The notes under the pieces were generated by a model. The model had not been told where the DNA came from. It did not search any database and saw nothing but the letters and a program-made list of their open reading frames with translations. Source: Candidatus Omnitrophota bacterium (GTDB lineage Bacteria; Omnitrophota; Gorgyraeia; Gygaellales; Profunditerraquicolaceae). Taken from it: a stretch of DNA of 64,000 nt. Where the stretch lies: assembly GCA_041649115.1 (NCBI GenBank), contig JBAZNT010000004.1, forward strand, positions 23,466-87,465, given 5' to 3'. Both the position numbers and the translations under genes were made by a program. Below are positions 1-28,908 of this stretch, piece by piece. Within the stretch, counting starts at the first letter, position 1, and each line of letters opens with the position of its first letter.

Positions 1-56
1 CCAAGAACAACCTTCTGGAAAGCCACATCAGGTTCCTTGCCTCCAATGATATCGGA

Positions 57-6000: not shown

Positions 6001-9000
6001 AAGAATTAGCCGCCCCCGGCAGCGGCAATCTGCCGCTTATTGCTGCTATGCAGGACCTGCACGGCGGGGCGCGCAGGGCCATGGCGCTGGCGGGTTTTGT
6101 CATGGGTCTGCCGGCAGGGCTCTATAGTCAAGTTACAACACTGGAAGACCTCAAGGCCCTTCTGGCAGAATACGGCATTGATGTTAAAAAAAATGGCGTG
6201 CGCTTTGTAGGCCTTAGCGATAAATACGACCGTGGTAATGATCCTATTGCAGCGTTTGAATTGGTAAAGTGGCTTAGGGATGAAGGCAAGGCCAAGCCTT
6301 TTGCCGGAAACCACGATGACTGGCGCACCTGGGGGGTATTGGGGATACACCTTTTATTTGAGGGCGGTATCGATTATAAATCCCCCGATGTCAAGAACCA
6401 CCATATTGCCTATTGGTCGCGCGAGGCCTTTATGCATTCCGGATGGGGGGACATAGAGCTGGAGCAGGTTAATCAGCGCAGATTTAATCAGGCAGTGGCA
6501 GCAGTAAATAAGATTTTGTCCCTAAACGGTATTACAGAATTATCTCCGATAGACCTTTCAGCCGTGCGTGCGCGGGATGAGGCGGAGTTAAAGAGCCTTA
6601 AGAAGCAGAATGCCTTGATACGCCAGCAGAATGAATTGAATAAGGACGACCCCGCTTATGCAAGGCAGGCAGAGCTGCCTCTTCCCGATATCTTCAAGAA
6701 TACCCTCGCTTATCTGCGCGTGAAGACAGAGGAGTATAACCAGCGCATCGCTGCCTTAAATGAGACCCGTCAGCTTGACCTGCCTTTGATAGAGTTCAAG
6801 GAAGTCAATCTTGCCAATTACTGGCGCGACCAGGAGATTATCGAGCGTGCGCTTTGGGAGCTTAAGAATTTCCGTCTTTTTTATGTGGATGTCCTGGGGA
6901 ACCTGCATATGCATAATATACTGCCCATTGATTATGAGAGTCTCCGGGGCGGTTTCGCCGTTGAATATAAGGGGCTAAGAGGCCTGCCTGCCCTAGAGCT
7001 TATGGCTGAAGATATCCGCGTTTTCTTCCAGGATATGGATACTATACCGGATTCCATGGAGTTCCGCAGGAAGATGTGGGATGAATTAGGGGAGGCCTTT
7101 ACAATTATTAACAGTTGGTATTCGGATATTGATGCCCATGCCAAGGCAGTATCGGTAAAGAAGTTCGTGGAGGCAGGAGGGCTTGAGGGGCTTGGCCATG
7201 AGATCCTGGGGCATGTCGCACAGGCCTTTGTGGACAGGGAGTCTACTACCTTTGTTGTCTGGGGGCATAATGAGCGCAAGAAATTCGCAGAGAGCCAGAC
7301 CAGCCTGCCGTATATCTATCTCTATCCCGCCCTGAATAGCGGCATACTTAACATAGATTATGAGATGTCGGAAGGATATTCCGACAGGGGAGCAGTAGTT
7401 ACTTTCTTCAAGCGCGATGCCGAAGGAATGATTACCGGCTTGCGCAGGTGGGGGTATCGTGATGACTCCAAGATTATTGAAGACCTCACCTTTGAGGATA
7501 CCGGAGGCTTAAGCGCGGAGCAGCTAGAGATGCTTGCCACGCTCAGCGACGGCGAAGGGTTTATGCGTTGGTATATGGCCAAGGCCGCAGCACATATAAA
7601 CGAAGAGGCAGGACATCTCCTGTCTCTTGCTAAGCGTTCCAAGCGTCCCGATAAAGAAGCCCGTGCGAGGTCGGCCATGATAGAAGCCAAAAAGCATTTA
7701 GGAGATCATGACCCCTCTTCAAGCTCGCGTCCTCTTAGCACGGAGGAAGCGCAGGAGCTAACCGGCATAATAAGCCGCTACGAGGCGGAATTTAGCGATA
7801 GCCCGGGTGTTTTTTATACCAGCGCAAGGCGCGGGTTTTTAGCAGAGCAGTCAAAAGTAATATCCATACTTAGCGACTTAGGTTACCGCCAGCTCTCCGA
7901 GAGATTAAAAGGCGCCATTGTAATCAATGCCCCCCCGCAGCTTGCCGCTGACCTGCGCCGATTCGAAAAGGAGCACCGCCTTAAAATCTATCAGTGTAAT
8001 ACTACTTTTGATTACAGGGACTACATCATTGTCCATAGGCCCAGCCGCATTAAAAGCCGTTTAGCCCACGAAATTTCAGCACTTCAAGGAAATCCCGAAG
8101 AAGAAAATAAAAAACTGGAAGAATTTGTTTATTCTTTAAGCAGCATAGGAAAGAGGAGCCTTATCTTTGCCGATGAGCGCCGCCTGCTGAAGTTATCGGA
8201 AAGGTACCCTGATTTTGCCAGAGACGGGATGCTGGTAGGCGATCTCGCCCGTTTGATCGCCAGGGAAGCAGGGTTGCCGAAACTCTACCAGGAATTTCTC
8301 TATAAGGCGGGCATGGTACACGACCTGGGCAAGGGGCTGCCGTTGGTTGAACTTTATTACCATTCCAGCATCAGGCCAGGGCGCTTCTTTAACGGCTGGA
8401 TGGCCGTATTACATTCCCGCTTGACCATAAGCATTTTAAAGAACGACGGAATCAAGCCTATGTCCTGGGAACGGGAAGTTCTTCTGCACCACGGGTATTA
8501 TAAGAACCTGCATTTCAGCAGCGCGATAGTCAGGAGGTTGTGGGTAATCCTTGTACTCGCCGACCACACCGTTTCCAGGCATCTGAGGCGTTCCCATCGC
8601 AGGAACCAGCCGCAGGGGATCAGGTTTAATAATACCATCGCGGAATTAGAAAAATACTTTAGTCCTTCTTATGGCATTTTAGGAAAAGGCAGGGGGGTAT
8701 TGCCTGAAGAGGAAAGAGAGATACTGGACATTGTCAAATCCCTGGGAAACAACCCTGAATTTATTAAGATACTGAATTTCGCCTTAAGCGGCGAACTGTC
8801 CGTAGACGAGCTTTACGCTAATACCTCCGTTTCTTTTGCGGAATCAAAAGAGGAATTTGTTTCTTTCCTTGCAGCAACATTTGAGGAGGGGGCATTTGTT
8901 ACCGTTGAAGACATTTCACGCGAGATACCTTTATTTTTGCTATCCAGCGCAAACTCCGAATTTATGCTAGATATCCTTAGGCAGCTTTGTATAGAAAAGA

Positions 9001-12000
9001 AGGTTGCCGCGCTGGAGCTCCCCGGGGAGGGAGAGGGATATCTCCTGCTGGATTTAAAAAAGGAATCTGTCCGGCACAGCCCCCTCGCCGATAAGGCAGA
9101 AGGTTCGTGTTTTTATGCCGGGTTTGCCAGCGGCATCAAGGATATATTAGAAGGGGGGCATTTTAAGTTTCTGCCGCGCAATGTACGCAGTTATTTTTTA
9201 AAAGAAGAATATACTGCCCTTGCCCTTAATAGGAAGGCGGCAGTAGACCTTTTTATAGAGGCCTACGTCGGAATGGCCAGGCTATTTACTGAATATCGCT
9301 CGGAGGATTTATCAAAAGGGGAAATCCGGGATTACATAAATAATTTTGTAGACAGTTTTTTCTCCGAAGAAGGCCTCCGGAAAACATGGGAAGATGGGCG
9401 TTGCCGCGCGTTGGGTATCCCCAAAGAAACTCCTATGCCCGAAGAAGTCAGGAACAGCTTTTCAGAATTATCCGCTAACAAAAAATACCTCCAGGAGATA
9501 CTGTTTCAGATGGCGTTAGCGTTTTCTGATTTATCCCGCAAGATGCCCGCGACAAAAACGCTCCGCCAGAAAAAAGAGCTTATCAGCCGGCTGGAGGATG
9601 TTATGCGCCACGCCTTATTCAGGTTGTCTGCTATCCAGAGTCCCCCGGTGCCAGGCTTTTTATATAATCCGGACGACCCCTTTTACTCCAAGATGATAAG
9701 TTTTTACAGCCATATCTTCGCAATAGTCTTTGAGCCGTCCTATGCCAGTAAGCCTACCTTGATGCTATATCTGGATGCCGAATTAAAAAGGCAGGCGCTT
9801 TTCGGGAGCAGGGATTTTTATAAAAGCGACAAAGACCGAGCCAATGCAGGCGCTTTAAATGCATTTCCGGGCTTCTACAATGCCTTTGCCGCTATCTTGG
9901 GTTGGGATATTCCCCGGGAAGATAGCGCAAGAGAAGATTTAAGCGCAAGCCAGATGGGCAAATATATCAGGGAGGCAGAAGCCGAGGCCGAATCTGCGGC
10001 GGAAGAATATCTCCGTTACGGGGTTCTGCCTTCGGGGATGGCGGGGCTCTGGCAGGATTATAAATATAATCTTATGATAGACGAAAAAGAGGAACCCGGA
10101 TTGCTAAAGAGGCTTTTATTGTTACGCAGCGCACTGGAAAAGATATCTTTAATCTGTGCGGCAGCGAATGCCATGGACTTCGGGGATAAGAAATTTCAGG
10201 AAATCAGCGCTATGAGCGGCTTTAAGGAGGAACAGTGGCTTTGCGCTCAACTTGAGATCGAGAAGAATAACGGCTTAGAGGTTAATCATATTGATAAGTT
10301 TTTTGAGATATTGGCAGGGGCGATGCTGGAATGGGAGAAGAAAAAGAGGCACGGGCAGCTAAATTCTGACAAGGGGCGGCCCAAGGCAATTATCCTTACT
10401 GACAATGCCGGAGAGACGGTATTGGCGATGCTTTTAGTGCAGTTCCTGCTGGATTTGGGATTTAACGTGGTAATCGCCAGCCGCGATACCCCGGTGATTA
10501 ACGATATGACCGCAGAGGACAGCTCGAGCATGTTAAGGATGTTCAGGCGCAAAGGTTATTTTAGGGACTACAGCAGCGAGCGTCTAAAAGTTATCTCTTC
10601 CGGTTCGCGCATCTTTGCTACGCCCATAACGCAACTGAGCTCCGCTTTTGAATTGGAATACAGATCGGCCGATACGGCTTTTGTGATTGCCATGGGGCAA
10701 GGAAATGCCGAAAGCCTCTGGCAGGCAAAATGGGATAAGCCTTTCATACATATCCTCTATGCCAAGAACCCGGAGAAGATAGAAGAGATCTCCACTTCTC
10801 TTGCTAAACGCGCAAGCCTGTTATTGGTGAATATGCCGGGCCCCCCTCAGGAGAACAAGAGGCTTTGCCTGCAGGACGCCCCTGAATTACTCGCGGCACT
10901 ATATGCCTTAGGAGGCATTCAGGTTATCCATGAAGAAAAGATATATATTATTACTGAGGAGTTTAACCCTGAAGAGATGGTTGCGGAATTCGCCTCCTGT
11001 TTTAAGGGCAAAGGAATCATTCTTGACGCTTCAGACGGGACGATTTACTTAGGTAAAGTAGAGATAGGCGAAGGGGTAAGCATTAAAGGCACCGGGCAGA
11101 CCGTCCTCAGGGGCGGGGTGATAGTTAACCCTGGAGCCAGTATTGAGAATTCCAGGATTGAGATCCCCGCCATAATCAAGAAGGACGAGAAAGTCGTAGA
11201 TAGGCACTTCGTGATTACAGAGCCGGGGGTCATAACCCGCCTGCGCCGCGAAAAGGTCTATATCAATGGTAAAATTATAGAGCATGATACGGGGGATGCC
11301 ATCAAGATAGGAAAAGGCAAGAGCGAGATAGAGGTGCTTAAGAACCCCGTTCCCTCAAGGCTATGCGCCTTATCATTGAATAAGCCCCTTGCCACTGCTT
11401 TAAGCAAGAAGGGGGTAGAGATAATTGGTGACATGGCCACGATTTTTGTATCTGACCAGGCCAGGATAGAACCCGGAGTAACCCTGCGCGCGCATGTTAT
11501 TATCGCCGGAGAAACGGCGGTCGGAATCGGGGCAGACATCGGGCCGGAGGTGCGCCTGGATAACTGTTATGTCGGCAATAGAGTTAAATTGACTAATCTG
11601 ACGGCGATAGACTGTGTTTTTCACCCAGGGGTCGAAATAAATGGAGTTAAGTCTCTCTCCGGCGAGGAGGCCTATCCTTATCCTCGCCAGTCTATTCCCG
11701 AGGGCATGAGTTTAACGGGCGTTATCGTTGACCCTGAGCTAGTAAAAGGCGTCAGCGGAATTACGGCGCTTAGATTTAAAAGCAAGACCAAGAGCCGCAG
11801 TTATAGTCTTATCCCGGGGGCAAAGGTAGACCCGCAGTTAAGCCTTGCAGAAATAAAAGTTTCTTACCCTGAGCTCTTGGAGTCTCTTAAGAGGCAGTCC
11901 GAGGAGAGTATTTCCGTTGCCAGTAAATCCTTCCGCGACGATAAACAAATCACCGCTACCCACCTGAGAAAGATTAATGAGACAATAGAGCTGATTTTGA

Positions 12001-15000
12001 ACGACCCCATCTTTGATTCTTTGAATTGGTACGAAGCTAAAGGTATTATCTGGCAGATTATATGGCTCTATGCCAAATCGCCATTCTACCATGAAAAGAA
12101 GGATGCCGATAAGGCAGCCTTAAGGGACGTCCCTCACCTGGTGGCTGTCTTGGACGAGATAGACGGTGTCAGCCGGGATGAGGTTATACGCAGGCGCCTT
12201 TCTTTTGCTATGGAGATAGTGGCCTTATCCAATATTAACGTCTTTGACCGTGCCAAGGCATACCGGGAAGATGACCCTGCTACCCAGCTTGTCTTAAACT
12301 TTGAGAAGATTATGAGTTTGGTGAGAAACAGGATGCATCCCGACACCATATCCTATGCCTTCAGGAGGTATTTCGTTTTAGAGATGACCAAGGAGGTAAT
12401 AGATTGCCTGTTAGAGATTCCGGAAATGGAAAGGGAGGGTAAGACGGTTATCTTTAATATTAATAATGCCGGTGAGGCCATTTATTCTTTAGTTTTGATT
12501 CGCGAGATTTTAAATTTAGGATATAAAGTAGTTATGACTGCCAATGAAAAGCCGATTGATGATAACTACGATGTAATAGACCTGACAGAGTTATTGGGCA
12601 ATCCTTTCGTAATACGCCCGGAGTTCCTTGGCGAGTTTATCGCATCCGGACGCCTTTGCATGATTTCAAACGGTTCATGCACGTCGGGATTAAACCTTGC
12701 GGATGTCTCAAAGCAGTTTTATGAGCTGGCAACAAACCGCAATACCGTGCTTATGCTTTCGGTAGGCTACGACCTTACCTGGGATACGCAGGATTACTTC
12801 TTGCCTTTTAATACCGCCTCTTTATTTTGGATAAAGAATAAAATTATCATAAAAGGAGGCTTGGATTTAAGCGAGTTGCGCGGGACAGCGATGGTCCTCT
12901 TCAGGAGAAAAAGCGAAAAAACCAGCCCCCGCCCTTCCCACAACTTCACCCTTTCTACCCAGCTCCTGGCTGCCCTGGCGTGCGCTTTAACTCTAAGGTT
13001 TAAGCCGGCGGCAGGATTCTACCGCACATTCAGGGCAGGTTATAAGGTGGCCCTCTACAGGACAGCCAAACTCGGAGGCATCAGGGGTTCTCCCGTATTG
13101 AAGCACCTCTTTGCCTTCTTTTACCGCATTGCGGACAACAGCATCACCGCCTCCGAGATAAATTCCCTCAAACAGGAACTAATCCTGGCCTTGCAGAAAA
13201 AGGAACTCAATCTTACCAGGAAAGAAATCAATTCCTTCATCAGGCAGCTGAAGCGCCATGAATCTGCCAGGAATGAAATCGGGGGCTTAAAAAAGCAGTA
13301 TCAGGAATATTTAGAAGTAAGACAGAGGCGTTTTAAGTTCGGGATTGACCCGGGGAGATTTCTACCAGAGGATTACGCCGAAATCATCAAAAACCGCGAA
13401 ACCAATCGCCCTGACGGCCGCCCCCTGGCGGTTATGGTTTTCTGCTCTTATGATTGGAACAAGGCTTTTAGCAGTAGCTCATGCAGGGAGATGACATCCG
13501 CTTTTATCAAAAACGGATACAGGGTTATGTATTATGTTGTCGGTTCGCGCGTGAAGTTAATTTCGGCTTTGAAAGATGCAACTTGCGATGAGGCAGCTTC
13601 GGTAATACTGTTTGGCGGGCACGGAACTCCGGAAGGAATCCTCCTGGGCAAGAGGGCACGCCTGCGCATAGAAAACTATGATTTGTTAGCCGGCGCAGGC
13701 TTAGATTCCGTTCTAAAAGAAAACGGACGGGTGATCCTGAATTCCTGCAGCACAGGAAAGGGGAGGGATAAGAATCCTAATATCGCCAATATGCTCTCCA
13801 GGTTATGGAAAAACAAAAATCCGCTTATCTTGGCCCCGACCGTAGAATCCTTCTCCCCCAGGATCCGATTCGGGAAAGACGGAGAGGTGGAGGATGCCTC
13901 ATTTTTGCATTACACCAATAATAAGGACCGGCTAACTGACCTGTTTTGTTTATTGTTAGTGTTTTCCATCGGGATAATGTTATGGCATTGTTTAATCTGG
14001 TCGTTAAAAGAAGAGGCGAGCAATCTGAGTCTGATATTATTACTGGGGTCCAGTATCTTAAGCAATGTTGCCACATTCTGGTCATCGCTGAGCCGGTCAT
14101 TTCAGAGAAACTTAGACAATATCTATTGGCGTTTTATGCACCGCTATTTCTACACCTATCGTATCAATGCCCCAGAGCAAAAAATATCCCAAAAACAGAC
14201 TGTTAAATTCTGGAAATATTGTGGCCCTGGCTCTACCTGGTTTGCTTCAACCTTTCCGTGGCTGGTGGGGAAGCGAACTCTAATGGCATCCAGGGCCACA
14301 GTATACTCTAAAGCTCCGGAGAAGCCAAAGAAACGCTTCCAGCCGAATTGGCGCAAGGTATTTGCAGTCTTGATGATGGCTACCGTTCTTATCGCAACCA
14401 TCGGCTTCAAGGCCGGCAATATCATTACCCTTTCAAATGCTTACGGTTATTCCTATAGCGAGCAGCCTGTAGCATCCGAGATTGCCGAAGTAGATTTTAC
14501 TCCCCAGGATGTCTCTGCGGATTTAAGCGGAGCAGATGTTATCTCTTATTTTAACAGCACGGCAGAATGGCAGGAAAGCCTTTTTTCCGGCATAGGGGCA
14601 GTTAAAGTAAATTCCAACTGCGTAAGCTCTGAGGGGTGCCTGGAGTTAACTTCGGTAGACGGCGGGATAACGGCAATTACATCGCCGGTTAATCTGGACC
14701 TGCATGCCAAGCTCCCCTTTATGCGTTTTAACGTAAGCGATCTGGAGAGCGCAGAGCAGACCGCCCTCTATCTTTATACTACAGACGATGATTTTTATTA
14801 CTGGAATATCGGGTCATTTGATTATGCTACAGACGGCTGGAACGAAATCGTGCTGAACAGGAGCAATTTTTCGGTTGTCGGCTCTCCGGACTGGTCCAGG
14901 ATTAACAAGGTAGGGGTGAGGATAAAATCAACTCCCGGGGCAACGCTCAGCGTAATCTTTGATGAGCTGGCAGTGCTTCCCGAGACCCTTACGCAAGGCG

Positions 15001-18000
15001 TCGTAATCCTAACCGATGATGACTTAAACAGGTCTGAGATGTACGATACCTTTGCGCAGGAATTAATCAGCCGCGGCATGCCCGCCTCTCTGTTTGCGGA
15101 CCATAAAGCCCTGGGGGCCGCAGGCGCGATTAGCGTCGAAGACATGAAGGTGTTACAGGATGCTTACGGTTGGGATATCGCCAACCATTCCTGGACGCAT
15201 TCGGACTTTACGGTCCTGACTACTGAAGAGCGCATTGCCGATATCACCCGGATGTCCGCATGGATGTGGGAGAACGGCTTTAAGGCCTGGGATATCTTCG
15301 CTTACCCGCTTGGCAATTATGACGCCGATACCATCCGGGATATCTCTCCGTACCTTACGGCGGCAAGGGGCGTGAGGGGCAGGAACGATACTTCCTACCT
15401 GGCAGACCCTTACCGTATAAGCGCAAGGCCGGTGGACCTGGATGTTTCCTTGGCAACGGCGCAAGAATGGGTAGACAGCGCTGCCCGGAATAAAGAGGTG
15501 CTGGTTTTAACCTTCCACAGCATTGCCGATAACCCCGTAGCGGGCGATGACCTTACCTGGTCTACCGCTGATTTCAGGTCCCTGCTTGATTATATCTGCG
15601 ATAGCGACGTAGAAGTAATGACTATGTCAGAGTATCTTGCCAGATATGCGCAATATGACAGTGACGCAGCGTTAGTATCCGGCGCAGAACAGGCAGGGAC
15701 ACAGGGATTTACCCTGGCGGCCGATTATAGCTGGAACCTGCCTCAGGGGTGGGTGATAGATTCCAATGGCAACGGTTCTTGGCCTAATGTTAAAAATTCA
15801 CTTTCAGTAGGCTCTGCCGGCACAGGCTATTCTGCCCTGGTTGACGCGCGCTACCATAACAAATACATCATCCAGGGGATGATTGACGTGGATGAATATA
15901 CTGCCGGACAGATAGGATTGTTTATTGAAGAGGGGAAACTGGAGGAAGGGGCATTTACCCCATTGCGCAGGATACCGGTAGCGGTCAGGACCGGCCAGAG
16001 CCTGGTTTATGTAACTGATGATTATACGGTTGATAACCCTGATGTCAATGCCGCAAGGCTAGTAATTGAAGTTAGCGCTGGAAGCGACCTGCACGCCTAT
16101 CTTGATGATTTGAGTTTTTCGCGCATCCGAGAACCGCAGGCATTCAGCGTCTCGAGGCCGCGCGTGGTCTTCAGGTTTGACGATGGCTTCGACGACCAGT
16201 ATCTTGCTGCCGAGTTCCTCCAGCAGCACGGCTTCCCGGCAGTGGTTAATATTATTACCGACCGCGTCGGTAGGGAAGGCTATCTTAACTGGGGAGAGGT
16301 CCTTGAACTTGATTCCATGGGGGTAGAGATTGGGGCGCATACCCGCACCCACGGCTATTTTGACGGTGCCGACGAAGCGGAGTGGTATGATGAGATTGTG
16401 GGCGCCAAGGGTGACCTGGAGATACAGGGCGTTGATGCGGATACCTTTGCTTCTCCGCGCCTGGAGTATGATTATTTCTCAGATGCCACGGTTTTGAGGC
16501 ATTATTCTTCTTACCAGGGAGGAGAAGGCGGGGAGGGCCAGGGCGTCAACACCTTTCCGTATAACCCCTATAACCTCAGGTCCCGCGTCGTTTCCAATAC
16601 TACTGCGGTTGAAACGGTAATATCCTGGGTTGATGAGGCGATTGAGAATAACCAGACTTTAATCTTGATCTACCATAAATTTAATGACGCCCCGCAGTAT
16701 GATACCGAGGTAAGTTTTGCCGATTTTAGCACGGTAGTAGATTATATCGCCTCCAGAAGCGGAGAGGTTGAGGTTGCTACCATCGATGATTTTCTTTCTG
16801 AGCAGGATGAGGCGCTGGTGAATCTGCTTCCCAATCCTTCTTTTGGCGATGTAGTCAGCGCCCCGGAATCAGCGCTTCCTGAAATTACCTCCGCAGATGA
16901 AATCGTGCGTCCTTCCAAAAGCGGTTTAGCGGTTTTCTTCAAGACCTTTACCTTCAGGGGGGAGGATAGCATCTGGACGGTTGGAGTCCGTAGGGATTAT
17001 CTGCCAAAGCTGTTAGTTTTAGTTTACAGTCTGCTTTCGGGGGTTTACATCTTCGGCCGCTTGATTCAGGCCTGTTTCTACCGCGCGCCAAAAGAAAATA
17101 AGTATTATCCTTTTGTTACTGTTGTCACTCCGGCTTACAACGAAGGGGCAGCCGTTAAGGACTCCATCCTGCGTACCTTTGGTACCGGTTATCCCCTGGA
17201 GCGGTTGAGGGTGGTAGCGATTAACGACGGCTCGCGGGATAAAACCCTGGATTATATCCGGGAGGCAGCCGGGATTTATCCGGACAACGTCCTTGTCATA
17301 AACTTCCCCGAGAACTGCGGTAAGCGCGAAGGTATGTATGCCGGTATGCAGGTTGCTTATGCCTTAAGCCGCGCCCGCAGCGAAGCATTGGATAACGCAG
17401 AGGCTGTTAATGTTATCCTGCGAGATCTGGAGATTAAAGTCAAGGGAGCGCTGAAGCCGTCAGCCGCAGAGGCGATTGTGGAGGCGACGCGCCGGGAATT
17501 GGCGCGGCTATCAATTGAAAAAAAGGAAGAAGGAGATTTTTCCTTCGGACTGGTAATACCCGAAGGGATGGAGAATTATTTTGTGAGTCCTTGCGAGCTT
17601 CCTGGCGGTGCAGTGGGGTTGGATGAGGACGCGGTAGTGTTTGTTGATTCTGACAGCTACCTTCGCGCCGGCGCGATCTACAATGCAGTGCAGCCGCTTT
17701 ATGACCGTAAGGTAGGAGCAGTAGCAGGCCACGCCTATATCCACAATCCTACCCGCGACCTCCTGACCGCAATGCAGGCGATTACTTATTTTACGATGTT
17801 CCGTATCGTCAAGGGCGCGGAGAGTGTTTTTGGTTCGGTTACCTGCGTCTCGGGATGTTTAGGAGCCTACCGCCTGGATTATCTTGTTGATGTCGGAGAG
17901 AGGTTTGTCCGGCAGGAGTTCTTAGGAAAGAAGTGCACTTTCGGGGATGACCGCCACCTGACCAACCTCATTCTGAAACAGGGCTACCGGGTAGTTTATA

Positions 18001-21000
18001 ACCGTAATGCAGCGGTTGATACCATTGTCCCAAATACTATGCGGCAGTTTATCAAACAGCAGACCCGCTGGAAGAAATCCTGGTTCCGCGAGACCATTTT
18101 TGCCAACAAGATCATGTGGAAACGCCCGCTCCCGGCAAGCATTGCTTATTATCTCGGGGTCCTGTTGACCATCTCGGCTCCGTTAATGGTTGCTTATATG
18201 GTGATTGTCCGGACGATGCTGAAAGGTATCCTGCCCTTTGCATATTTGGGCGGCTTGCTGCTTCTGCCTTTTGCAATGGCGATGTATTATTATTACCATA
18301 ACGGCATGCGGGGCAAGCTTTATTATGCCTGGTTGTTGCCGGTTGTATTCCAGGCATTTATTCTGGGGCCGCTGACTTATTATGCCATCCTGACCTCTAA
18401 AAATACTGGATGGGGCACGCGCGGCGGAGCGGATAAGGCCGGGAAGGCCCAACATTTGAAACTTGTCGCCAAGCGCATCAGCGATACCGCCAGCCGCCAG
18501 GCGAAAAACACCAGTACCCGCAGCGGCAAGGAATTAAGCAAGGCAGAGGCGGATTCCGTAACCGCATCCATGCTGGATTTGTTAGCCAAAGCGTCCGGCT
18601 CAGATTTGTGCGGCCTAGATCAATTTATCTTAAGACAGCATGTTAACGGGGCAGTATCTGCGGTGAGGTTTTTTGCCGGGCTCTCCGCTCGTTTCAGGAA
18701 AGAAGACCTGCGCCAGGCTGTTGTTATCAGCGGAACTCCGATATATGTTGAGAGGGCGAATGGAGCGCGAGAGGAAATTTTTGGCGCAGTCAGGATTATT
18801 AACGGCAGAATATCGATATATTTAAACAATAACCGCATAAGGAATAAGGTTGATTTATCGCGTACTTTGGTGCATGAATTGGGTGCTTATATCGGGTTTC
18901 CGCATTGGGTTAATCAAAAGATATTGGAACGGCTGGTGCCTGATGTTGACAGGAGCGTCCACGACCCCGCCCGTCCCATACCCGGTCATTCCATGCCTGC
19001 CGGGGAGGAAGTGAACAGCCAGATTGGCCTGGTCGGCTGGGACAGCGGAGAAGTCGAGACTGTTGGGGTAGATGCCCCCGCATTGTGCCTGGCAGTCAGC
19101 TGCCTACGTTCCATCGGCAGAAACGACATGGCAGAATATTTAGAGTATCTCGCCAGAGCGGGTCTAATCCGTGCCGGACCTTTCAAGGGATTCCTGGCTG
19201 CACCTTATCAGCAAGGCATCGCCTTAAGCAACAACTACCCCGCCTATAACACCACTCAGGAAATAGCGCTTTCCCTTATTCATGATATCGGAGCCACTTC
19301 CAGATTTGACCTTAGCCACGAAGAGAACATTGAAAGAGAAGAAAGGTGCGCTGCTTTATGCGCCTGCGGTTATTTTGAAATTAGCGCTATCCTGGAGGAC
19401 TTATACATTAAAGCCCTGGATGCGCTGAAGAAATATAAAGGATATTACCAGGCGGCAGGAACCTCGCACCTTTTAACGCCGGAGTCTTTGGATTACCTGA
19501 AGACCCATAGATACAAGATGAATTTTAGGTATCACGGGAAGATGAAGTCTTTTATGCGGGCGCATCTTTTGTATAACCGGCACTATATGGAGAATGCCCT
19601 GGTAGATATCAGTTTTCTTTGGATGGCGTATTCGGCCTTGAGGCATTTAGAAAAACAGGGAGCGCAAGGTTTAAAATCTTACCTTGATGCTAAGGAAGAG
19701 GCGGTAAAAAGAGTAACGGCCAGGCACCTGGAGCTATCCGAAGGCGAGCTCCGGAGGTATCTGGAGGGCGAACCCGCTATTACTGCCCGGATAGAAGCAG
19801 AGCTCCTGGTTAAGCCCTTTACGCCTCAGGGGCTAAGAGAAATTTTTGAAAATGACTCCCGGCGCCGGCATAAAAAAGGAGAATACAGCATTTTTTCCTA
19901 TTTCGGCCAGGGCCAGGACGAAAATAGAATCCTTTTAGCAGTACGGAGGTTCTATGCCTCTTTGAGGTTTTTCGATAAGTACGCCTGCGAGATTTCCTCC
20001 CTGAAGTCGCGTATCGCATCTCTGCCTTCAGAAGCTAACGAACCAGCGGCCCCTGAGGTAGCGCCCAGGGTCGCGCGCGCTCTTCGCGTTAAAGAAATTT
20101 CCCCGGAGGCCAAGGGCCAGCAATATCTCTGGACCGATGACGATATCAAGGCCGCGGATTATATAAGCCGGTTAATCGGGATATTAGAGAGATTGCTCGA
20201 TAAATCTCTGAATGATTTGAAATATGCATTGCAGGAGTATACGGATAAGTTTTTTAATTGTAGCCAGAGTGAATATAAGCGTTTAGTCGGGGAGTTAAAA
20301 TTGGAGGATGCCCGCCTGATTTTTAAAAACAAATGTTATTTGAATCAGGAGCGTTTGAATAGGTTAGAGAAGTTTATTAATGCCGGCCGCGATACCGCCT
20401 TGAAGCTGACGAATCCCTATGTTTTGAATAAGCCGGTTTACAGTCTTTCTTACCATCTGGCTTTGGTACGCAAGGTAATGGTGGCGCAGAGGTATCTTAA
20501 GACTAAAGGGCCGCAGGTCCTGCACCGTTATCTGGAAGATAAGGCCCGGGAAGCAGGCAACTTATCCAGCCAGCAATTGGTCAATGCCATGAGCTCAGAG
20601 GCTGCTGTTTGGCTTTCTTGGGTTTTGGAATACGAAATAAAAAATCCCAAGATATATAAGATGACGGGTTTATTATCCATATTAGAGCAATACCTGACAG
20701 AACGGCCATTTATTATCGCCTGCGAGCTTTCCGATACGGCTAAGATTTTAACGCCGATGCTGGGGGAAGAACTCCACGCGGCCGACGGCTTTAATCTTAC
20801 CCCTTCGCACCGTCTCCGTCTCTTAGAACAGGTGCGGTCCGGAGAATTAGATGTTGTTTTTGTTTCGCTGGAGTCTGTGCCGGAGGCCACGGCATATTTG
20901 GAGGCAAGCCAGTTTATTTTATTGACCGAAACACCCGACAGCTGGAAGGTTGAGTCCCACCGGGCGCAAGGTGAAGGACTTACTGCCGAAGATGCGCATG

Positions 21001-24000
21001 CAGAAGGAGCGTTGCCGGAGGCCGAGCAGCTTTGTCTATTTAACCCTTTGCAGGAAAAAGAGGAGGCAGCGTTGCCTGCGGTTGAAGAGGAGCTTAGGGC
21101 TATGGAGCGGATTGCTGCAGCAGAAGGACGCCCTAAGATTATTGAGTATGATATGCGGCGGCTACATTTACTTAACGCATTAGGCATTATCACCAGCGGG
21201 AAAAGGGTTTTTAATGTGCTCTCCGGGGTAGATTTGTTCCCGGGGTTATATGCCGGGGAGATGTGGGCGTCTGATATGCGATTCAGCGATATTGAATTGC
21301 AGGAGTTATTTAGAAAGGTTTATGAGCGGGCAGCGGAATTTATCCCGGAAGAATCAAGAGAAAAGGTATTGCCGCAACTGGATTGCTTTGAAAGGTGCGC
21401 GATATGCCATGATACATCCGACATTCTGCAATCAAAGTGCGATTTTATCCCGGGTTGGGTCAGCCAGATGCGCCCAGGAGACGTTGTGATATTGAAGTTT
21501 TCTCATGAATATCTCCTTCAGCCAGGGGTAAGCCCGGAGAAGATTAAGGAATGGATGGATGACTTTACCAGCGCGCTCCCCGAAGGGGTGATAGCGGTTG
21601 TCGTAGAGCATAAACCGCAGCCTAACTTATTCCCCGAAGGCCTGGCTAGCCATCTGCTCAGGTCAGGGGACTTCGTAGATTATTTAAACCCCGATGTTTC
21701 TAGGCGTTTGGATGCGATACACGCAAATGAGCGGATAATAGAGCCGGGTTATCGGGATATTGAAATTGTCTTAAGAGACGGCGAGAAGCGTAAAATTTTA
21801 GTTTATGATGCCGGAGGGAAGCTAACGGTATTACGCAAGATAAGGGTGCCGGAGAACGCAGTATTAAAGAAGACAGGATTTCTTTCCCGCTTTAAGCAGG
21901 GAGGGATCATTGAGATAAAGCATTATTTTGACGGAGATCCCCAGACCGAGGCAGCCGGCACCTTGACCAGCTTATTATCTAACAGCGGCCTGCCTTATTA
22001 TTCCACAGCCACCTCGGTTTATGATATTTATTCGAGGATTCCTTTAAGTTGCGGCACCAGCGGAGAAGTAAAAGACATACATTGGCTTATATACGGCGGG
22101 CTGTTTACCGCCTGCATCCAGGTTACAATCGAAGCTATTTTAAGAAGAAACGGGATACTAAGCGAGGATTCGGTAAGCTGGATAACCCTGCCTTTGTTTG
22201 CGATAAACACCAGGTATATCCCAAACAGCCAGTATCGTTACGAAGCCTCCGAACGCATCCCGGAGTTAATCGCCGAGCATTCTTCGGAAGGCATAATCAC
22301 GACGGGTAGAGAGTTTTCTTTGCGGGGCAAGGAGGAATATCTCTATTTTCCCTATAATGCCGACTCCAGGATTATAATCAGAAAAGACGGAGAGATTCTA
22401 GGAATAATCAATCCTTGCGGCAGCCCGACCTTCGTGCTTGATTTTTATACCAGCATGGACTGTATGGACCGCTACGCCTTCGGTGATAAAGAAACCTTAG
22501 AAGGATTAGCAGAAGATGCGGCTAGCCCCTCAGGGCCCAGCCATAAAGAGTCGGGACACGGAAAGGCACGGCTCAGAGGAATTCTTGCCACTCTGTCATT
22601 TTTAGACGTAATGCCAGAGAGTATTTTCGCCAGAATGTTCAGAGGCCAGGATTTTAGAGAAAGGGTCGCCTCTGTGCTTAGATATTTTGCAAAGAGCGAT
22701 AAATATGCGCAGATTGAAACAGCGCTGGAGCCCGTCGAATTAAAGTTACTTGAAAGGGTCGCCTTTAACGTGATATTTAAATACATCTATTTAAGGACCG
22801 GCGTATTGATATACGGAAGGGAATCTCACCTTTTGAATCATGTTGAGCAGCTACGGAGAGAATATACGCGGGAGTGGTTCAGGCGCAAGGATTCTTCCTG
22901 GGCAGATTCCTTTAACAATCTGCTGTTGCAGGATGGCGAATTTTATGATTTCTTGGACCATGTTTTGGATGTCAGCAATACAGGATTTGTGCGTCCCGAA
23001 ATTAAAAGTCAGACGGGTTTTCTTATCGAAAATATCATCCGGATAAGACAAGCGGATAGTGGCAGAAAGGTCAGGATTTGGTTCGCTGCGTGCGCCAGCG
23101 GTGAAGAGGCATATCGGTTTGCGGCTGAAGCCATAAGGCACGGGTTAGGCTCTGATGATATCGAAATAATAGGTTCTGATTTAGACGCCGGAGATATCAA
23201 TTCCGCAAAAAATAAGACCTATAATAAGGCTGCTGAGCTTTTCTTTGGGCGAGGCCAAAGCCATGAAAGAGAAAAAGAGATCAAGGAATTTGAGGCTATT
23301 TTCGGAAAGAAAGACGACATCCGGCGCAGGGAGGCAATATTTAAATGCTATAACTTTTTAAGCGATGAGGCATTTCCTTTCGGCCCGGGCCTTGATTTTG
23401 TTGTTTTAAACAATGTTATTAAAATTTGGATACCTCTCGAGCGCCTTCCTGAACTGAGCGTTAGATTATACCCGCTCCTTAACAGAGACGGGCTCGTCTG
23501 TATCTGCAATGAACCGGAATGGAATGAGGGCATATCCGGCAAGCTCGACGCTTCATTATTCCAGGAGATAAAAAATCAAAAGAACGTTTTCCGCAAGATA
23601 GAATTCCTTGAGAGAGCGGCAGCCGCAAGGGGTCAATCCCGGATAACCGAGAAGACCCGCAATTTCACCCCCGCTTCTCAATGGCTCTTTGCCAAATCCT
23701 TGAGGCTAATGAGAAAGGCCAAGGCAGCCGCGCATTATGAGAAAATATATGGATTAGGCTATAAGGCGGCCTTGTGGAAGACGGCCGGGATAAACGGAAC
23801 AAGAGGGTCTCCGACCCTCAGGCAGAAGTGGAATGCCTTTTTCCGTCCTCTCGCCAATGACCGCACCAGCGAAGAAGAGCTCCAGGACCTGCGCCAGGAA
23901 ATAATCAAAAATCAAGTCCTTGCCGAAAAAGAAGCCGACACGCTCGTTAACGAAATCAGAACCCATGAACAGGCCCATCGCCAGGCGACCCGGGAGGGCA

Positions 24001-27000
24001 TCCGCAATCCCTTTAGAAGCGAGATATACGCCTTAAAGAGACAGGGGGATGTTCATACAGAGACAGCTGTTCTTGCCCCGGGAGTTAAAAATAAAGCCCA
24101 GTCGACTCCCAAGAGCAAAAAAAGACCGTTTTTGACCCGCATCATTTCAGCGCTGTTCGTATTATGTTTGAGTTTAGGCATGCTTATGGCCTCTCCCGAT
24201 AAAATTGCAGCGCTTTATTACACTATAACATCCGCTGCCAACAATAACACAGCAGCGGTTACATCATTTGTCTGTAATGCTGACGATAGCCGGTTGGCGG
24301 AGGACCTGGAGAGCGAGCAGTACAATATTGTCAGCCAGGCGCGTTCCGAATTACATACAATAGCAGAGGATAGCCCTGAAAGGGTGATTCCGTGTCTGAC
24401 ATATTTATTGGAGCAAAGCGATAATCCTGATGCGATGTTTTATGCCTCCCAGGTTCTGCAGGAGGCCTTCCGTCAGGTAGATGAAGATTATTTGAGCACG
24501 GGCTTGAAAGATTACCTGTATAGCATTGATAGCGCTACTCCTCGAGTCAGCGTTTTGCCTTCAGAGCGCAGCGGGAAAGATGTCCTGGTTGTCTTTTTAG
24601 ATACTGATATGGAATTAGAGCTGGTCAGGCAGACGCATCTAGATATAGTAGAAGGCGTTTTGCAAGATTCGCTGAATACCCAAGATACCGGCATTGAAGA
24701 GATTATAATTAACCGCGCGGACTTGCAGCAGACTACCGCCGCATTGCTTAGGGTGGTTGAGCAGAACCCCAATAAAAGCATCGTGGTTAACATGAGCTAT
24801 GGTCTTTTTGACTCTCGCGATTACGTTAACGGCGTGTTGCCTCTTGATGTAGTCGAAGAGCTTGGCAAGAAGGGGGTAGTCTTTGTAGTCAGCAGCAGCA
24901 ATTGGGGGATCCCTTATCTGCCTCCAGCCAGCCTCCCGGATAATCTGATAATAGTGGGAGGGTCGGATTCTGCGGCTACCTCTTTCGGGCCGCATATAAA
25001 GATTAGCAGTTCAACTTATGCTAGAGAGAGCAGGTTCGGAAAAGGAAATTCTTTCGCTACTCCGCGGGTAACCGCGGCGTTAGCAAATCTTCTTACCGAA
25101 TTTCCTACGCTTTCCCAGGCAGAAGCGATAGAAGCGTTATTAGCTACAACACGCCCAATTAGCGGTACAGACCGGCCGGCGCTTCTTTACGAAAGCGGGC
25201 TTTTAGGAGGAGAATTGGACGAGGATGCGGCGGAAGCATATCTGAGGCAGCAGGGGACGCAAGAGGAGAGGTTGCGGCAGGATATAGAGACCTTGGCTAG
25301 TTTAGGCTCCCGTATAGCATATCCTTCTTCGCAGGAGAACGACCTGGCTGCGGAATATATTTTCGGACAACTTGAGGCAATGGGGCTGGACGTCAGCTAT
25401 CAGAATTTCAACATAAGGCCTTACCGCGCCGAGGCCGGGTTGAAGATGTTTACGGTATATGATTCCCAGGAGCCGGAGGGGTTAACCTGGATAGATGAGC
25501 CTGCCAGCGCCCGTAATGTCGTTGCCACATTGCCAGGAAGCACTCACCCCGAAAAAATCCTGGTTATTTCCGCGCATTACGACGGCCTCAGGCCGGGAGG
25601 TTCTGCAAACGACAATGCCTCGGGCGTTGCCGTAGTGCTTGAGACGGCCAGGATACTGAGTTCCTTAGAGCCGGATTATACGGTGCAGTTTGTATTATTC
25701 AGCGGGGAAGAAGAAGGCATCCTTGGAAGCAGGTATTTTGTGAAATATATGCTGGAGCAGAACCCGGAATTCTCGGATAACTTCATATGCGATATTAACG
25801 TAGATATGGTAGGTAATCTTAGCTATTCCGGAGAGACGCACACGCCAGATGCAGAGGACCTTAATATCATCGTCATGCCTGAATTTATGCCGTTTGCCCA
25901 GAGATTGGCAGTTTATGCGGAATCCGTGCCAGACCTTGAGGTTACGCTGAATGAGTTTAAACAGCAGGGGGCTTTTAGCGATGATTACGCCTTTGAAAGA
26001 AAAGGCCTCTGCGGAGTGAACTTGGCAGAAGACGATATCCCGGAGTTAATTGAAATGGGGGCGCTTAATCACGGACTTCCGGACGCCCCGGATGCGATAG
26101 ATTACGGTTTTGTTCATCGCGTCTCAAGATTAGTGGTAGCTTCTGCTACCGCATTTTCTAATGATGCCTCTGTTTTTATCGGCGGCTTCGCCGCTATTCA
26201 TAATTTCACCCCCGCTTCTCAATGGCTCTTTGCCAAATCCTTGAGGCTAATGAGAAAGGCCAAGGCAGCCGCGCATTATGAGAAAATATATGGATTAGGC
26301 TATAAGGCGGCCTTGTGGAAGACGGCCGGGATAAACGGAACAAGAGGGTCTCCGACCCTCAGGCAGAAGTGGAATGCCTTTTTCCGTCCTCTCGCCAATG
26401 ACCGCACCAGCGAAGAAGAGCTCCAGGACCTGCGCCAGGAAATAATCAAAAATCAAGTCCTTGCCGAAAAAGAAGCCGACACGCTCGTTAACGAAATCAG
26501 AACCCATGAACAGGCCCATCGCCAGGCGACCCGGGAGGGCATCCGCAATCCCTTTAGAAGCGAGATATACGCCTTAAAGAGACAGGGGGATGTTCATACA
26601 GAGACAGCTGTTCTTGCCCCGGGAGTTAAAAATAAAATCCCGCCGCCTTCGAAGCAACAGACAGACAATATTTCTCCTGCGGAAAACGAAAAGGGAAAAA
26701 TCAATCGTCTTAGCGCCGCAATGCCAACTACTGTTAAGAGGAATTTCAACTTACGGTATTTGCATAACTTCGCCGTTCGCCTGGAATCGAGAGAAATCCC
26801 TTATCCTCTGGATGAAGGAGGGCTTAATTATAGCGCCCGCATGTTAAAAGTTATACAAGATGCCGCGGAATCAATAAACAAAAACGGGACAAAAATAATA
26901 AGGATTACTATCAATCGCTACGGTTCCTTAGCCACTAATTGCTGGATGTTGGGTTCTGATATAGACGGCATGATAGTTTATGCCGATTCGATTGTTTCCG

Positions 27001-28110: not shown

Positions 28111-28452
28111 ATGGACGGGATATTGGTAAAGGATAAGAGGTTGTTTGAGCGCATCGCCACAAATTTAGCCTTACGCTTCATGGACCTTGACGGAAATAAA
28201 GTCGGCCAGGGGCAGGCCTGCGATGTCAGCGCCAAGGGAGTAGGTTTTATCAGCAGCGAGCCCTTAAAGCCAAGCACTTCTTTGGGGATATGGCTGGATA
28301 TTCCGGACGGCTCCAGCGATCTCTACACCCAAGGTTCTGTGGCGTGGTCCAGGCCTCTGGTTGACGGCAGATACCGTATCGGCGTAGAACTGATGAGGCC
28401 GGAACTGATGGGTTTTTCGCGTGTTTTAAGGTTAAATCAAAACTTTGCATAA
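28111..28452 (+). CDS. Stand-alone PilZ-domain protein (c-di-GMP receptor family)
   Basis: PilZ motifs RLFER (RxxxR) and DVSAKGVGF (D/NxSxxG). RBS GGGAGGTG lies 5 nt upstream. The start is 34 nt after the giant ORF stop. Confidence 0.85.
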   Translation: MDGILVKDKRLFERIATNLALRFMDLDGNKVGQGQACDVSAKGVGFISSEPLKPSTSLGIWLDIPDGSSDLYTQGSVAWSRPLVDGRYRIGVELMRPELMGFSRVLRLNQNFA

Positions 28453-28474
28453 GTGTTTTTAATAAAATAAATAG

Positions 28475-28502
28475 TAGTCAAAAGAGCAATTTGTGATATA
28501 AT
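28475..28502 (+). promoter_or_regulatory. Putative sigma70 promoter of PilZ-2 (extended -10)
   Basis: TAGTCA (28475-28480), 16 nt spacer, TGaTATAAT (TATAAT at 28497-28502). Confidence 0.4.
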
Positions 28503-28516
28503 ACCTCAGATAATGG

Positions 28517-28531
28517 AAAACAGCCACGGAG
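28517..28531 (+). promoter_or_regulatory. Conserved leader motif AAAACAGCCACGGAG (copy 2, upstream of PilZ-2)
   Basis: Exact match to 28076-28090, although the coding regions of the two paralogs have diverged substantially. Confidence 0.5.
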
Positions 28532-28560
28532 CAAAAATACTCAGAGGAGGGAGGTGTAAT

Positions 28561-28887: not shown

Positions 28888-28908
28888 CCATTTCTTAAGG
28901 GGAATGCC

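What the first reader, a model, noticed from the sequence alone, without database searches (positions are those of the whole stretch)
23661..26636. Perfect 435-bp in-frame direct repeat bracketing an S8 + M28 peptidase cassette
nt 23661-24095 and 26202-26636 are identical base for base. They are exactly 2,541 bp (847 codons) apart, so both encode the same 145 aa. Between them lie an internal signal-anchor, an S8-like peptidase and an M28 aminopeptidase. Zero divergence, including at synonymous sites, implies a very recent duplication, ongoing gene conversion, or an assembly artefact. Homologous recombination between the copies would delete or re-duplicate the peptidase cassette while keeping the frame. 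That would be a ready-made mechanism for modular variation of the giant protein.
Basis: seen in the sequence. Interest (0 to 1): 0.75.

Follow-up and report, generated by a model that had tools for sequence, protein, structure and literature searches.

The report
Identical module repeat brackets peptidase cassette
Inside a giant (over 9,300 amino acid) gene of an uncultured Omnitrophota bacterium, a previously undescribed 145-residue protein module occurs twice with identical DNA on either side of a two-protease segment; it looks like a real duplicated module, probably kept identical by gene conversion, and is of moderate rather than exceptional interest.

Summary
Window 23661-24095 and 26202-26636 are 435/435 identical, 2,541 nt apart and in frame within a giant ORF of at least 9,339 aa. 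They bracket a segment with a membrane anchor, an S8-like domain and an M28 peptidase.

New here: the repeat is not arbitrary DNA. It is one complete copy of a rare, all-helical, unannotated protein module ("R", consensus start H-NFT). An exhaustive search found it only in Omnitrophota giant-protein fragments. A third copy, 33% identical, lies at aa 4296-4420.

The one close relative found is a syntenic Omnitrophota MAG contig. Its stored part has a single R (77% aa identity, dS 0.67) and no peptidase segment, and the other modules are shuffled.

The repeat edges look eroded. The conserved His codon is kept before copy 2 only, and 11 of 18 nt match just past the right edge.

I favour an older R-cassette-R arrangement homogenised by gene conversion (about 0.4). 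A brand-new duplication is about 0.25, and an assembly or polishing effect about 0.2. No reads or second assembly were available, so none is excluded.

In-frame loss or amplification of the cassette by recombination is plausible and fits the relative, but it is not shown. Interest is moderate.

The parts
3..28076 (+). Giant multi-enzyme ORF, at least 9,357 codons open and running off the 5' edge of the window. It hosts everything below.
   Evidence: Pfam domains: guanylate kinase, HAD hydrolase, ARMT1-like, polysaccharide deacetylase, GT2/chitin-synthase-like, CheR methyltransferase, S8, M28. Hydrophobic segments.
12942..13316 (+). Third, diverged copy of the R module (aa 4296-4420; 33% identical to the repeat).
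   Evidence: blastp E 6e-18. R-family HMM score 189 bits. It starts with the consensus S-H-NFT.
23661..24095 (+). R1, the first perfect copy (aa 7869-8013). It follows the CheR module tail (...EKTR) and is preceded by Arg (CGC) instead of the family's His.
24096..26201 (+). U, the 702-aa segment between the copies: membrane anchor, S8-like domain and M28 peptidase. Its codon usage and GC match the rest of the gene.
24129..24185 (+). Signal-anchor or transmembrane segment FLTRIISALFVLCLSLGML, preceded by KSKKRP.
   Evidence: Hydropathy peak 2.14. In 4 of the 5 distant R homologues that have sequence after R, a strongly hydrophobic helix follows R within about 35 aa; the fifth (P0008) has a signal-like segment read by eye.
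24747..25154 (+). S8 (subtilase)-like domain. The match is partial, the catalytic Ser and Asn motifs are recognisable by eye, and the His is uncertain.
   Evidence: Pfam PF00082, 35.9 bits, profile 104-273 of 288. No solved-structure sequence match. Weak similarity to the S8-like region that follows R in P0008 (E 2e-4).
25515..26141 (+). M28 aminopeptidase domain, complete, with metal-ligand motifs present.
   Evidence: Pfam PF04389, 105.8 bits. Alignments to PDB 6hc6, 2ek8 and 1cp7.
26202..26636 (+). R2, the second perfect copy (aa 8716-8860). It lies about 12 aa after the end of the M28 domain and is preceded by His (CAT), as in the family consensus H-NFT.
26637..26654 (+). 18 nt just right of R2 that match the 18 nt right of R1 (24096-24113) at 11 of 18 positions. 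This may be an eroded repeat edge.
   Evidence: Empirical P is about 0.0025 for a fixed 18 nt and about 0.01 for the best-prefix statistic.
27510..28064 (+). C-terminal domain of the giant protein (aa 9152-9336), 72% identical to the relative's C-terminus. Together with R it is the conserved frame around a variable slot.

Best explanation
The repeat is a genuine duplicated protein module, not arbitrary DNA. R is a roughly 130-aa all-helical module plus a 15-aa linker. It is specific to Omnitrophota giant proteins and usually sits just upstream of membrane-spanning segments. In this gene it stands on both sides of a peptidase segment (anchor, S8-like domain, M28). I think the R-U-R arrangement is older than the zero divergence suggests, and that intragenic gene conversion keeps the two copies identical (concerted evolution). 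Only the outermost codons escape conversion and have drifted. Two 435-bp direct repeats 2.1 kb apart are also a substrate for repeat-mediated recombination. That would remove the cassette in frame (A-R-D) or amplify it (A-(R-U)n-R-D). Shown: the identity, frame, module status, rarity and taxonomic range of R, the third copy, and the single-R, cassette-less architecture in the stored part of the relative. Inferred: gene conversion, the age of the arrangement, and any recombination outcome.
For: The repeat is exact and in frame. It coincides with a module. An exhaustive HMMER search of 1.84 billion representative proteins gave 9 hits at E up to 0.001. Six of them match across most of the module, and they align from the H-NFT start. 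Five of those six are named Omnitrophota and one Micrarchaeota. An R HMM finds exactly three copies in the window. R is under protein-level purifying selection: dN/dS is 0.19 and dS 0.67 against the relative L002. R1 and R2 show no difference over 96.7 synonymous sites, so pS is below 0.031. Edge erosion: His before NFT is present in all 8 other family members and before R2, but it is Arg before R1, with CGC against CAT; His makes up 1.9% of the protein. The 18 nt past the right edge match at 11 of 18 (P about 0.01). The order R, then anchor, then S8-like domain recurs in the distant homologue P0008, which argues that the R1|U junction is old. The His argues that the U|R2 junction is not a random paste site. 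U has native composition. The M28 domain is complete before R2, and both R2 junctions fall in linkers. Repeat-mediated deletion between direct repeats of this size is established in bacteria (PMC10669199, which cites a 438-bp case).
Against: No relative with two R copies was found. The only close relative has one R and no cassette within the 4,011 aa available, so there is no between-genome versus within-genome comparison, the classical proof of concerted evolution. The edge signals are weak and were noticed post hoc: one codon, and 11 of 18 nt in Pro/Ser/Lys-rich linkers. The similarity of U to P0008's S8 region is marginal (E 2e-4). Complete identity right up to both edges is also what a single very recent event, or in-silico homogenisation, would give. 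No reads, coverage or second assembly could be examined; three look-ups by exact protein sequence found none of the window's neighbouring proteins on record.
Confidence: 0.4

Rival explanations
1. A brand-new single-event duplication. One R copy was pasted very recently, about 2.1 kb from the original, into a linker of the same gene. Either R1 was copied to a site downstream of M28, or R2 was copied to a site between the CheR module and the anchor. No time has passed for any substitution.
For: There are 0 differences in 435 nt, with abrupt loss of identity at both ends. The last 15 aa of the repeat are a lineage-specific linker not shared with L002. The close relative has one R only. The upper bound on copy divergence is under 5% of the divergence from the relative.
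Against: The left boundary falls within one residue of the module's conserved start, and the paste site would have to supply the invariant His by chance (about 2%). Alternatively, if R2 is the source, the canonical order R, anchor, S8 seen in P0008 would have arisen by chance. The 11 of 18 flank match would also be chance. There is no microhomology, target-site duplication or terminal inverted repeat at the junctions. The structure is not a tandem duplication, which is the common spontaneous class.
Confidence: 0.25
2. An assembly or polishing effect. The R-U-R layout is broadly real, but either the copy number is wrong (a population mixture of A-R-D and A-R-U-R-D, or more than one R-U unit) or consensus polishing with multi-mapping reads erased real differences between two similar copies.
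For: The window comes from an uncultured lineage known mainly from metagenome assemblies (bioRxiv 10.64898/2026.06.07.730766). A 435-bp exact repeat is longer than a typical short read, and giant-gene repeats are reported to fragment assemblies (bioRxiv 10.1101/2023.11.21.568195). All six R homologues sit on contigs of which five are short (1.7-5.1 kb), and five are partial proteins. No independent assembly could be found.
Against: A false join through a shared repeat cannot invent both the R|U and U|R junctions. Those require either a real R-U-R or a 2,541-bp circle that is one endless ORF. The whole stretch stays open and in frame, and its codon usage is native. M28 is complete and the junctions lie in linkers.
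Confidence: 0.2
3. R is a portable in-frame module that mediates capture of the cassette. The peptidase segment entered by recombination at R, or by insertion with duplication of R as a very long target duplication. R behaves as a semi-mobile junction element of giant genes.
For: R is present or absent exactly at module junctions between the window and L002. The third copy follows the ARMT1-like module in the window but not in L002, where homology stops 6 aa before H-NFT. Module order is shuffled between the two genomes. The single R in L002 sits both after the cytoplasmic enzyme modules and before the tail.
Against: There are no terminal inverted repeats, target duplications or recombinase, and no further near-identical copies. 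The third copy is only 33% identical, so any movement is ancient. Campbell-type integration from the same genome would give R-U-R-U, not R-U-R. U has no second copy or foreign composition.
Confidence: 0.08

Closest known systems
Omnitrophota giant 'multi-enzyme' proteins (class 1 of Nielsen & Lui 2026, bioRxiv 10.64898/2026.06.07.730766; giant genes of West-Roberts et al. 2023, bioRxiv 10.1101/2023.11.21.568195)
   Same: A very long ORF tiled with many different enzyme domains plus membrane segments. Its relatives are Omnitrophota MAGs. A sugar ABC importer, an MFS transporter and glycoside-hydrolase genes lie directly downstream, as reported for giant genes. S8 peptidase domains occur inside such proteins.
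   Different: Those studies scanned for tandem nucleotide repeats and concluded that repeat architecture is generally old and diverged. Here the repeat is dispersed, 100% identical and brackets a cassette. No SecA DEAD-like, C39 or dockerin domain was detected in the part inside the window. The R module is not described there, as far as the sections I read show.
Concerted evolution of intragenomic duplicates by gene conversion (for example bacterial tufA/tufB and rRNA operons; from my own knowledge)
   Same: An identical core in two copies with unrelated flanks, and edges that appear to decay.
   Different: Here the copies are two modules of one ORF only 2.1 kb apart in direct orientation, so deletion competes with conversion. 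The defining test, that copies are more alike within a genome than between genomes, could not be run because no relative with two copies was found.
Repeat-mediated deletion or amplification between direct repeats (RecA-dependent recombination or single-strand annealing; PMC10669199 and the works it cites, including 438-bp repeats in Deinococcus)
   Same: Direct orientation, about 435 bp of perfect homology and a short spacer. The predicted products remain in frame.
   Different: No product was observed here. Whether this organism's recombination machinery acts on the repeat is unknown.
In-frame selfish insertions in coding genes (Rickettsia palindromic elements; inteins; from my own knowledge)
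   Same: A discrete module that appears or disappears in frame at particular points of proteins.
   Different: R has no palindromic ends, no target duplication and no Hint or endonuclease domain. It has very few copies and is under purifying selection as a protein.

Membership tests
Omnitrophota multi-enzyme giant protein (Nielsen & Lui class 1) | Polypeptide of at least 10,000 aa | tested here: inconclusive
   9,339 aa from the first start codon and 9,357 open codons. The ORF runs off the window's 5' edge.
Omnitrophota multi-enzyme giant protein (Nielsen & Lui class 1) | Many distinct Pfam enzyme domains, none dominating by copy number | tested here: met
   Eight different enzyme families, each present once.
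Omnitrophota multi-enzyme giant protein (Nielsen & Lui class 1) | [quoted passage not shown] | tested here: met
   About 10 hydrophobic segments by Kyte-Doolittle scan. No dedicated topology predictor was available.
Omnitrophota multi-enzyme giant protein (Nielsen & Lui class 1) | Encoded by phylum Omnitrophota | tested here: met
   This is indirect. The syntenic relative L002 is 'MAG: Candidatus Omnitrophota bacterium'. Five of the six R-module homologues are named Omnitrophota. No marker-gene phylogeny was done.
Archaeovorin-type giant protein (West-Roberts 2023) | SecA DEAD-like helicase domain and/or C39 peptidase | tested here: not met
   Neither was found by Pfam in the 9,339 aa inside the window. 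The missing N-terminal part is untested.
Direct-repeat substrate for repeat-mediated deletion or amplification | Two copies in direct orientation, with hundreds of bp of near-perfect identity and a unique spacer | tested here: met
   435 of 435 identical, both on the + strand, with a 2,106-bp unique spacer.
Direct-repeat substrate for repeat-mediated deletion or amplification | Recombination products (deletion junction A-R-D, or extra R-U units) present in the population | not testable with these tools
   No reads are available, and no second assembly of this organism was found.
Concerted evolution by gene conversion | Paralogous copies more similar within a genome than orthologous copies between genomes | not testable with these tools
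   The only close relative holds a single R in the stretch available. The upstream 9 kb of its contig could not be fetched.
Concerted evolution by gene conversion | Homogenised core with diverged remnants of the duplication at the edges | tested here: inconclusive
   His versus Arg in the codon before the repeat, and 11 of 18 nt matching after it (P about 0.01). Suggestive, but found post hoc.
Tandem repeat expansion | Head-to-tail copies | tested here: not met
   The copies are separated by 2,106 bp of unique sequence.
Transposable or MITE-like in-frame element (for example Rickettsia palindromic elements) | Terminal inverted repeats, target-site duplication, many near-identical copies | tested here: not met
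   The best terminal inverted match is 9 of 11, at chance level. There is no adjacent target duplication and no other nucleotide copy in the window.
Intein | Hint domain blocks; N-terminal Cys/Ser and C-terminal His-Asn followed by Cys/Ser/Thr | tested here: not met
   No Hint or other Pfam match at E up to 10, apart from a sub-threshold Ferritin_2 hit. R begins with NFT and ends with KNK.
Peptidase family M28 | Pfam match above the gathering score, and the co-catalytic metal-ligand motifs | tested here: met
   105.8 bits against a cut-off of 21.3. AHYD, NDNASG, GEEEG and NVDMVG align to solved M28 aminopeptidases. The last His ligand region reads SDDY and was not resolved.
Peptidase family S8 | Asp-His-Ser catalytic triad in a full subtilase fold | tested here: inconclusive
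   The Pfam match is above the cut-off but covers profile positions 104-273 of 288 only. Ser (GNSFATP) and Asn (SSSNWG) motifs are visible by eye, and the His was not identified. No solved-structure sequence match.

The most novel reading that the evidence does not exclude
R modules are functional junction elements of Omnitrophota giant genes. Because the same module recurs at boundaries between enzyme cassettes, it would give the DNA portable in-frame homology through which cassettes are excised, amplified or exchanged, a bacterial analogue of exon shuffling. At the protein level, R could also mark the points where the giant polyprotein is inserted into the membrane or cut. On that reading, two identical R modules around a protease pair would define a releasable unit.
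Probability: 0.1. Interest if true: 0.75.

Novelty: new member of a known kind. Interest (0 to 1): 0.4.

Why it matters
Giant bacterial genes are recent discoveries, and how they are built and remodelled is unknown. The published survey I read looked only at tandem repeats and concluded that repeat architecture is old. If this repeat is real, it is a nucleotide-level snapshot of module-scale duplication or homogenisation inside such a gene. Its boundaries sit at a domain edge, and a related genome differs by exactly the predicted kind of cassette content. It also gives a concrete, cheap test: long reads or PCR for in-frame cassette loss or gain. Finally, it flags an undescribed, Omnitrophota-restricted module that marks junctions before membrane segments. 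It does not by itself reveal a new mechanism.

Tried and rejected
1. Independent assemblies. Exact-protein look-ups of three neighbouring genes found nothing. The metagenome scan returned only the same contig as the genome scan.

2. Close homologues of the whole R-U-R region. The word-index protein search found none, and the first genome scan with 8-mer peptides found none.

3. Origin of U. Only distant M28 peptidases were found, at most 40% identity over 23% of the query. Codon usage and GC of U do not differ from the rest of the gene, so a foreign origin is rejected.

4. Function of R. No Pfam match and no solved-structure match. The AlphaFold model from 7 sequences was all-helical but low in confidence (pLDDT 55), so no fold search was run. 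The HExxH motif in R (HEQAH) is not conserved in the family; the other members read HESAR, HEEAK, HEQGK and similar. A zincin active site is therefore rejected.

5. Mobile-element signatures (terminal inverted repeats, target duplications): none.

6. Residual homology in 300-nt flanks: none beyond the 18 nt on the right.

7. The apparent extension of homology upstream of R1 to the third copy (ASLF..IKN) added no BLAST score. It belongs to the tails of the preceding modules, so it was dropped as evidence for an ancestral A|R1 junction.

8. Pfam scan of the R-bearing homologues and of the L002-specific segments: uninformative.


Full report
OBSERVATION. Window 23661-24095 and 26202-26636 are identical at all 435 positions. 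Identity ends at the next base on each side (independently). The copies are 2,541 nt (847 codons) apart, both in frame 0 of one ORF, 57..28076, of 9,339 aa. That reading frame is open back to base 3 of the window, so the gene is longer than what is visible. Each copy encodes the same 145 aa (aa 7869-8013 and 8716-8860). This is the only long nucleotide repeat in the 64 kb.

WHAT LIES BETWEEN AND AROUND. The 702 aa between the copies ("U") begin with a basic stretch and a hydrophobic helix, KSKKRP-FLTRIISALFVLCLSLGML (hydropathy 2.14). They continue with a partial Peptidase_S8 match (35.9 bits, profile positions 104-273 of 288) and a complete Peptidase_M28 domain (105.8 bits). The metal-ligand motifs of the M28 domain align to solved aminopeptidases. 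The M28 domain ends about 12 aa before R2, and the sequence after R2 starts with a Pro/Ser/Gln-rich linker, so R2 sits between linkers and disrupts nothing. U has the same GC, GC3 and codon usage as the rest of the gene. The giant ORF as a whole strings together guanylate kinase, HAD hydrolase, ARMT1-like, polysaccharide deacetylase, GT2/chitin-synthase-like, CheR methyltransferase, S8 and M28 domains, with about ten hydrophobic segments. Downstream are two PilZ genes, a sugar ABC importer, an MFS sugar transporter and GH2-like genes, followed by ordinary chromosomal genes.

THE REPEAT IS A PROTEIN MODULE. A third copy of the 145-aa unit lies at aa 4296-4420, at 33% identity (E 6e-18). A profile of the window copies was searched exhaustively against 1.84 billion representative proteins. 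It returned nine hits at E up to 0.001, six of which match across most of the module. All six are "hypothetical" proteins. Five are partial proteins on short contigs (1.7-5.1 kb), and one (P0013) is a full-length call on an 88-kb contig. Five are named Candidatus Omnitrophota or Omnitrophica and one Micrarchaeota. Aligned, the family starts with an invariant H-N-F/L and has the blocks GYK(V/A)AL(Y/F/W)K.A, GIRG(S/A)P, AFFYPLAN and IHE.G..E..GL(K/R)NQ.

The perfect repeat starts at the Asn of H-NFT, within one residue of the module's N-terminal boundary. It ends 15 aa after family conservation stops. Those last 15 aa (VHTETAVLAPGVKNK) are a lineage-specific linker that the closest relative does not share. 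In four of the five homologues that have sequence after R, a strongly hydrophobic helix follows within about 35 aa. In the fifth, P0008, R is followed by a lipoprotein-like signal (read by eye) and then an S8-like region weakly similar to U (E 2e-4). That is the same order as R1, anchor, S8 here. R has no Pfam or solved-structure match. A structure prediction from the 7-sequence alignment is all-helical but of low confidence (pLDDT 55). The HEQAH motif inside R is not conserved as HExxH across the family.

THE ONE CLOSE RELATIVE. A degenerate-pattern scan of the GTDB species representatives found contig JBAZKK010000005.1 of an Omnitrophota MAG (L002). The metagenome scan found the same contig again (L004, an identical sequence). 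L002 is syntenic downstream, with SBP, two permeases, MFS and GH at 80-95% aa identity. It carries the 3' 4,011 aa of a homologous giant gene. That fragment holds exactly one R (76-77% aa and 81% nt identity; dS 0.67, dN/dS 0.19). R is followed by about 356 aa containing an HELGH motif, and then by a C-terminal domain 72% identical to the window's. There is no S8 or M28 and no second R in that stretch.

The other shared modules are only 31-50% identical and occur in a different order. The window's third R copy has no counterpart in L002: homology stops 6 aa before its H-NFT. So R and the C-terminal domain diverge at about the level of the flanking orthologues, while the content between and upstream of them varies. 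This shows that these genes vary module by module. It is also the architecture that loss of the cassette by R-R recombination would leave, although it could equally be the ancestral state.

AGE OF THE REPEAT. With no difference over 96.7 synonymous sites, the 95% upper bound on pS is 0.031. That is less than 5% of the synonymous divergence from L002. So the copies either separated very recently or are being homogenised.

Three details favour homogenisation of an older arrangement. (a) The residue before NFT is His in all eight other family members and before R2 (CAT), but Arg before R1 (CGC). If R2 were a fresh paste of R1 at a random site, a His there would have a probability of about 2%. (b) The 18 nt following the two copies match at 11 positions, with empirical P about 0.0025 for 18 nt and about 0.01 allowing any prefix length. 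The left flanks show nothing further. (c) The order R, anchor, S8 in P0008 suggests the R1|U junction is old, while (a) suggests the U|R2 junction is not random.

Taken together, both junctions look old, with a perfectly identical core and drifted outer codons. That is the pattern expected for a converting repeat whose edges erode. These signals are weak and were found after looking, so I weight them modestly.

ARTEFACT. I could not examine reads. None of three neighbouring window proteins is on record in the searchable assemblies. A misjoin through a shared repeat cannot create the R|U and U|R junctions. These need a true R-U-R, or a 2,541-bp circle consisting of one endless ORF, which is implausible. 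The stretch is open, in frame and compositionally native. What an artefact could plausibly affect is copy number (a mixed population with and without U, or more than one R-U unit) and the exactness of identity (polishing that erases a few real differences). I give this about 0.2.

MECHANISM AND CONSEQUENCES. There are no terminal inverted repeats, target duplications or junction microhomology, and it is not a tandem duplication, so transposition and simple slippage are not supported. Direct repeats of this length and spacing are known substrates for RecA-dependent recombination and for single-strand annealing in bacteria (PMC10669199, which cites a 438-bp example). The products here would be an in-frame deletion of anchor, S8 and M28, or an in-frame amplification. 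That step is inference. Published work suggests S8 and C39 domains might cut giant proteins into pieces (bioRxiv 10.1101/2023.11.21.568195). Whether R is a processing or membrane-insertion mark is speculation that I could not test.

COMPARISON WITH WHAT IS KNOWN. The host gene fits the "multi-enzyme metabolic cluster" class of Omnitrophota long proteins (bioRxiv 10.64898/2026.06.07.730766, section 8). That study scanned tandem nucleotide repeats only, and concluded that repeat architecture is not the product of recent expansion. A dispersed, perfect repeat around a cassette falls outside what it tested. The phenomenon itself, a segmental duplication possibly under concerted evolution and a substrate for repeat-mediated rearrangement, is a known kind. 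The module R appears to be undescribed.

VERDICT. The feature is real in the sequence and biologically coherent, and it is informative about how a giant gene is remodelled. It is mechanistically ordinary and unverified at the read level. Probabilities: older duplication with gene conversion 0.4, brand-new duplication 0.25, assembly or polishing effect 0.2, R-mediated cassette capture 0.08. Interest 0.4.

Noticed in passing
window 12942-13316: A third copy of the repeated module, 33% identical, lies 3,450 aa upstream in the same ORF. It directly follows the ARMT1-like module. The relative L002 has no R at the orthologous junction.
   Followed up: yes
window 57-28076 versus L002 2-12037: Shared modules of the two giant genes occur in different orders and are only 31-50% identical. 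The flanking genes are 80-95% identical, and R and the C-terminal domain are 72-78% identical. The bulk of the giant gene therefore evolves or reshuffles much faster than its surroundings.
   Followed up: partly
window 27510-28064: The conserved C-terminal domain contains the pattern ...NIDCCDGA...WPHR...YIDPTF. By eye this resembles the Cys-His-Asp core of transglutaminase-like cysteine peptidases.
   Followed up: partly
window 26637-27509: The 291 aa between R2 and the C-terminal domain have no Pfam hit and no counterpart in L002. They contain a GS...DIDG motif that by eye resembles a nucleotidyltransferase fold. L002 has a different 356-aa segment with HELGH at the same place, so this is a variable slot.
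   Followed up: no
window 24096-24113 versus 26637-26654: The 18 nt just past the two repeat copies match at 11 positions (P about 0.01). This is either an eroded repeat edge or a coincidence between Pro/Ser/Lys-rich linkers.
   Followed up: yes
window 36328-36798 versus 36880-37350: A 65%-identical internal direct repeat of about 470 nt lies inside ORF 36170-37354 (394 aa, no Pfam hit). It looks like an old internal duplication in a neighbouring gene.
   Followed up: no
window 51056-51110 versus 51542-51596: A 55-nt, 73%-identical direct repeat lies inside the PHO4 phosphate-transporter gene. It probably reflects the internal two-fold repeat of that family.
   Followed up: no
window 1-64000: Every sizeable gene is on the + strand and GC skew is positive throughout. 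MnmG/GidA is at 48212-50101. This suggests one replichore arm, possibly not far from the origin.
   Followed up: no
window 28111-36059 and L002 12967-19962: Two PilZ genes, a sugar ABC importer, an MFS transporter and GH2-like genes directly follow the giant gene. From the ABC substrate-binding gene onward the order is the same in the relative. This matches the reported association of giant genes with carbohydrate import.
   Followed up: partly
P0010 (PIZ92182.1): One R-module homologue is deposited as Candidatus Micrarchaeota, while all the others are Omnitrophota. It sits on a 1.7-kb contig and may be a binning error.
   Followed up: no
protein libraries: Neither the window's giant protein nor L002's appeared among hits in the 1.84-billion-representative search, although their R modules would score very highly. 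Giant proteins therefore seem under-represented in those libraries, and the rarity of R may be overstated.
   Followed up: no
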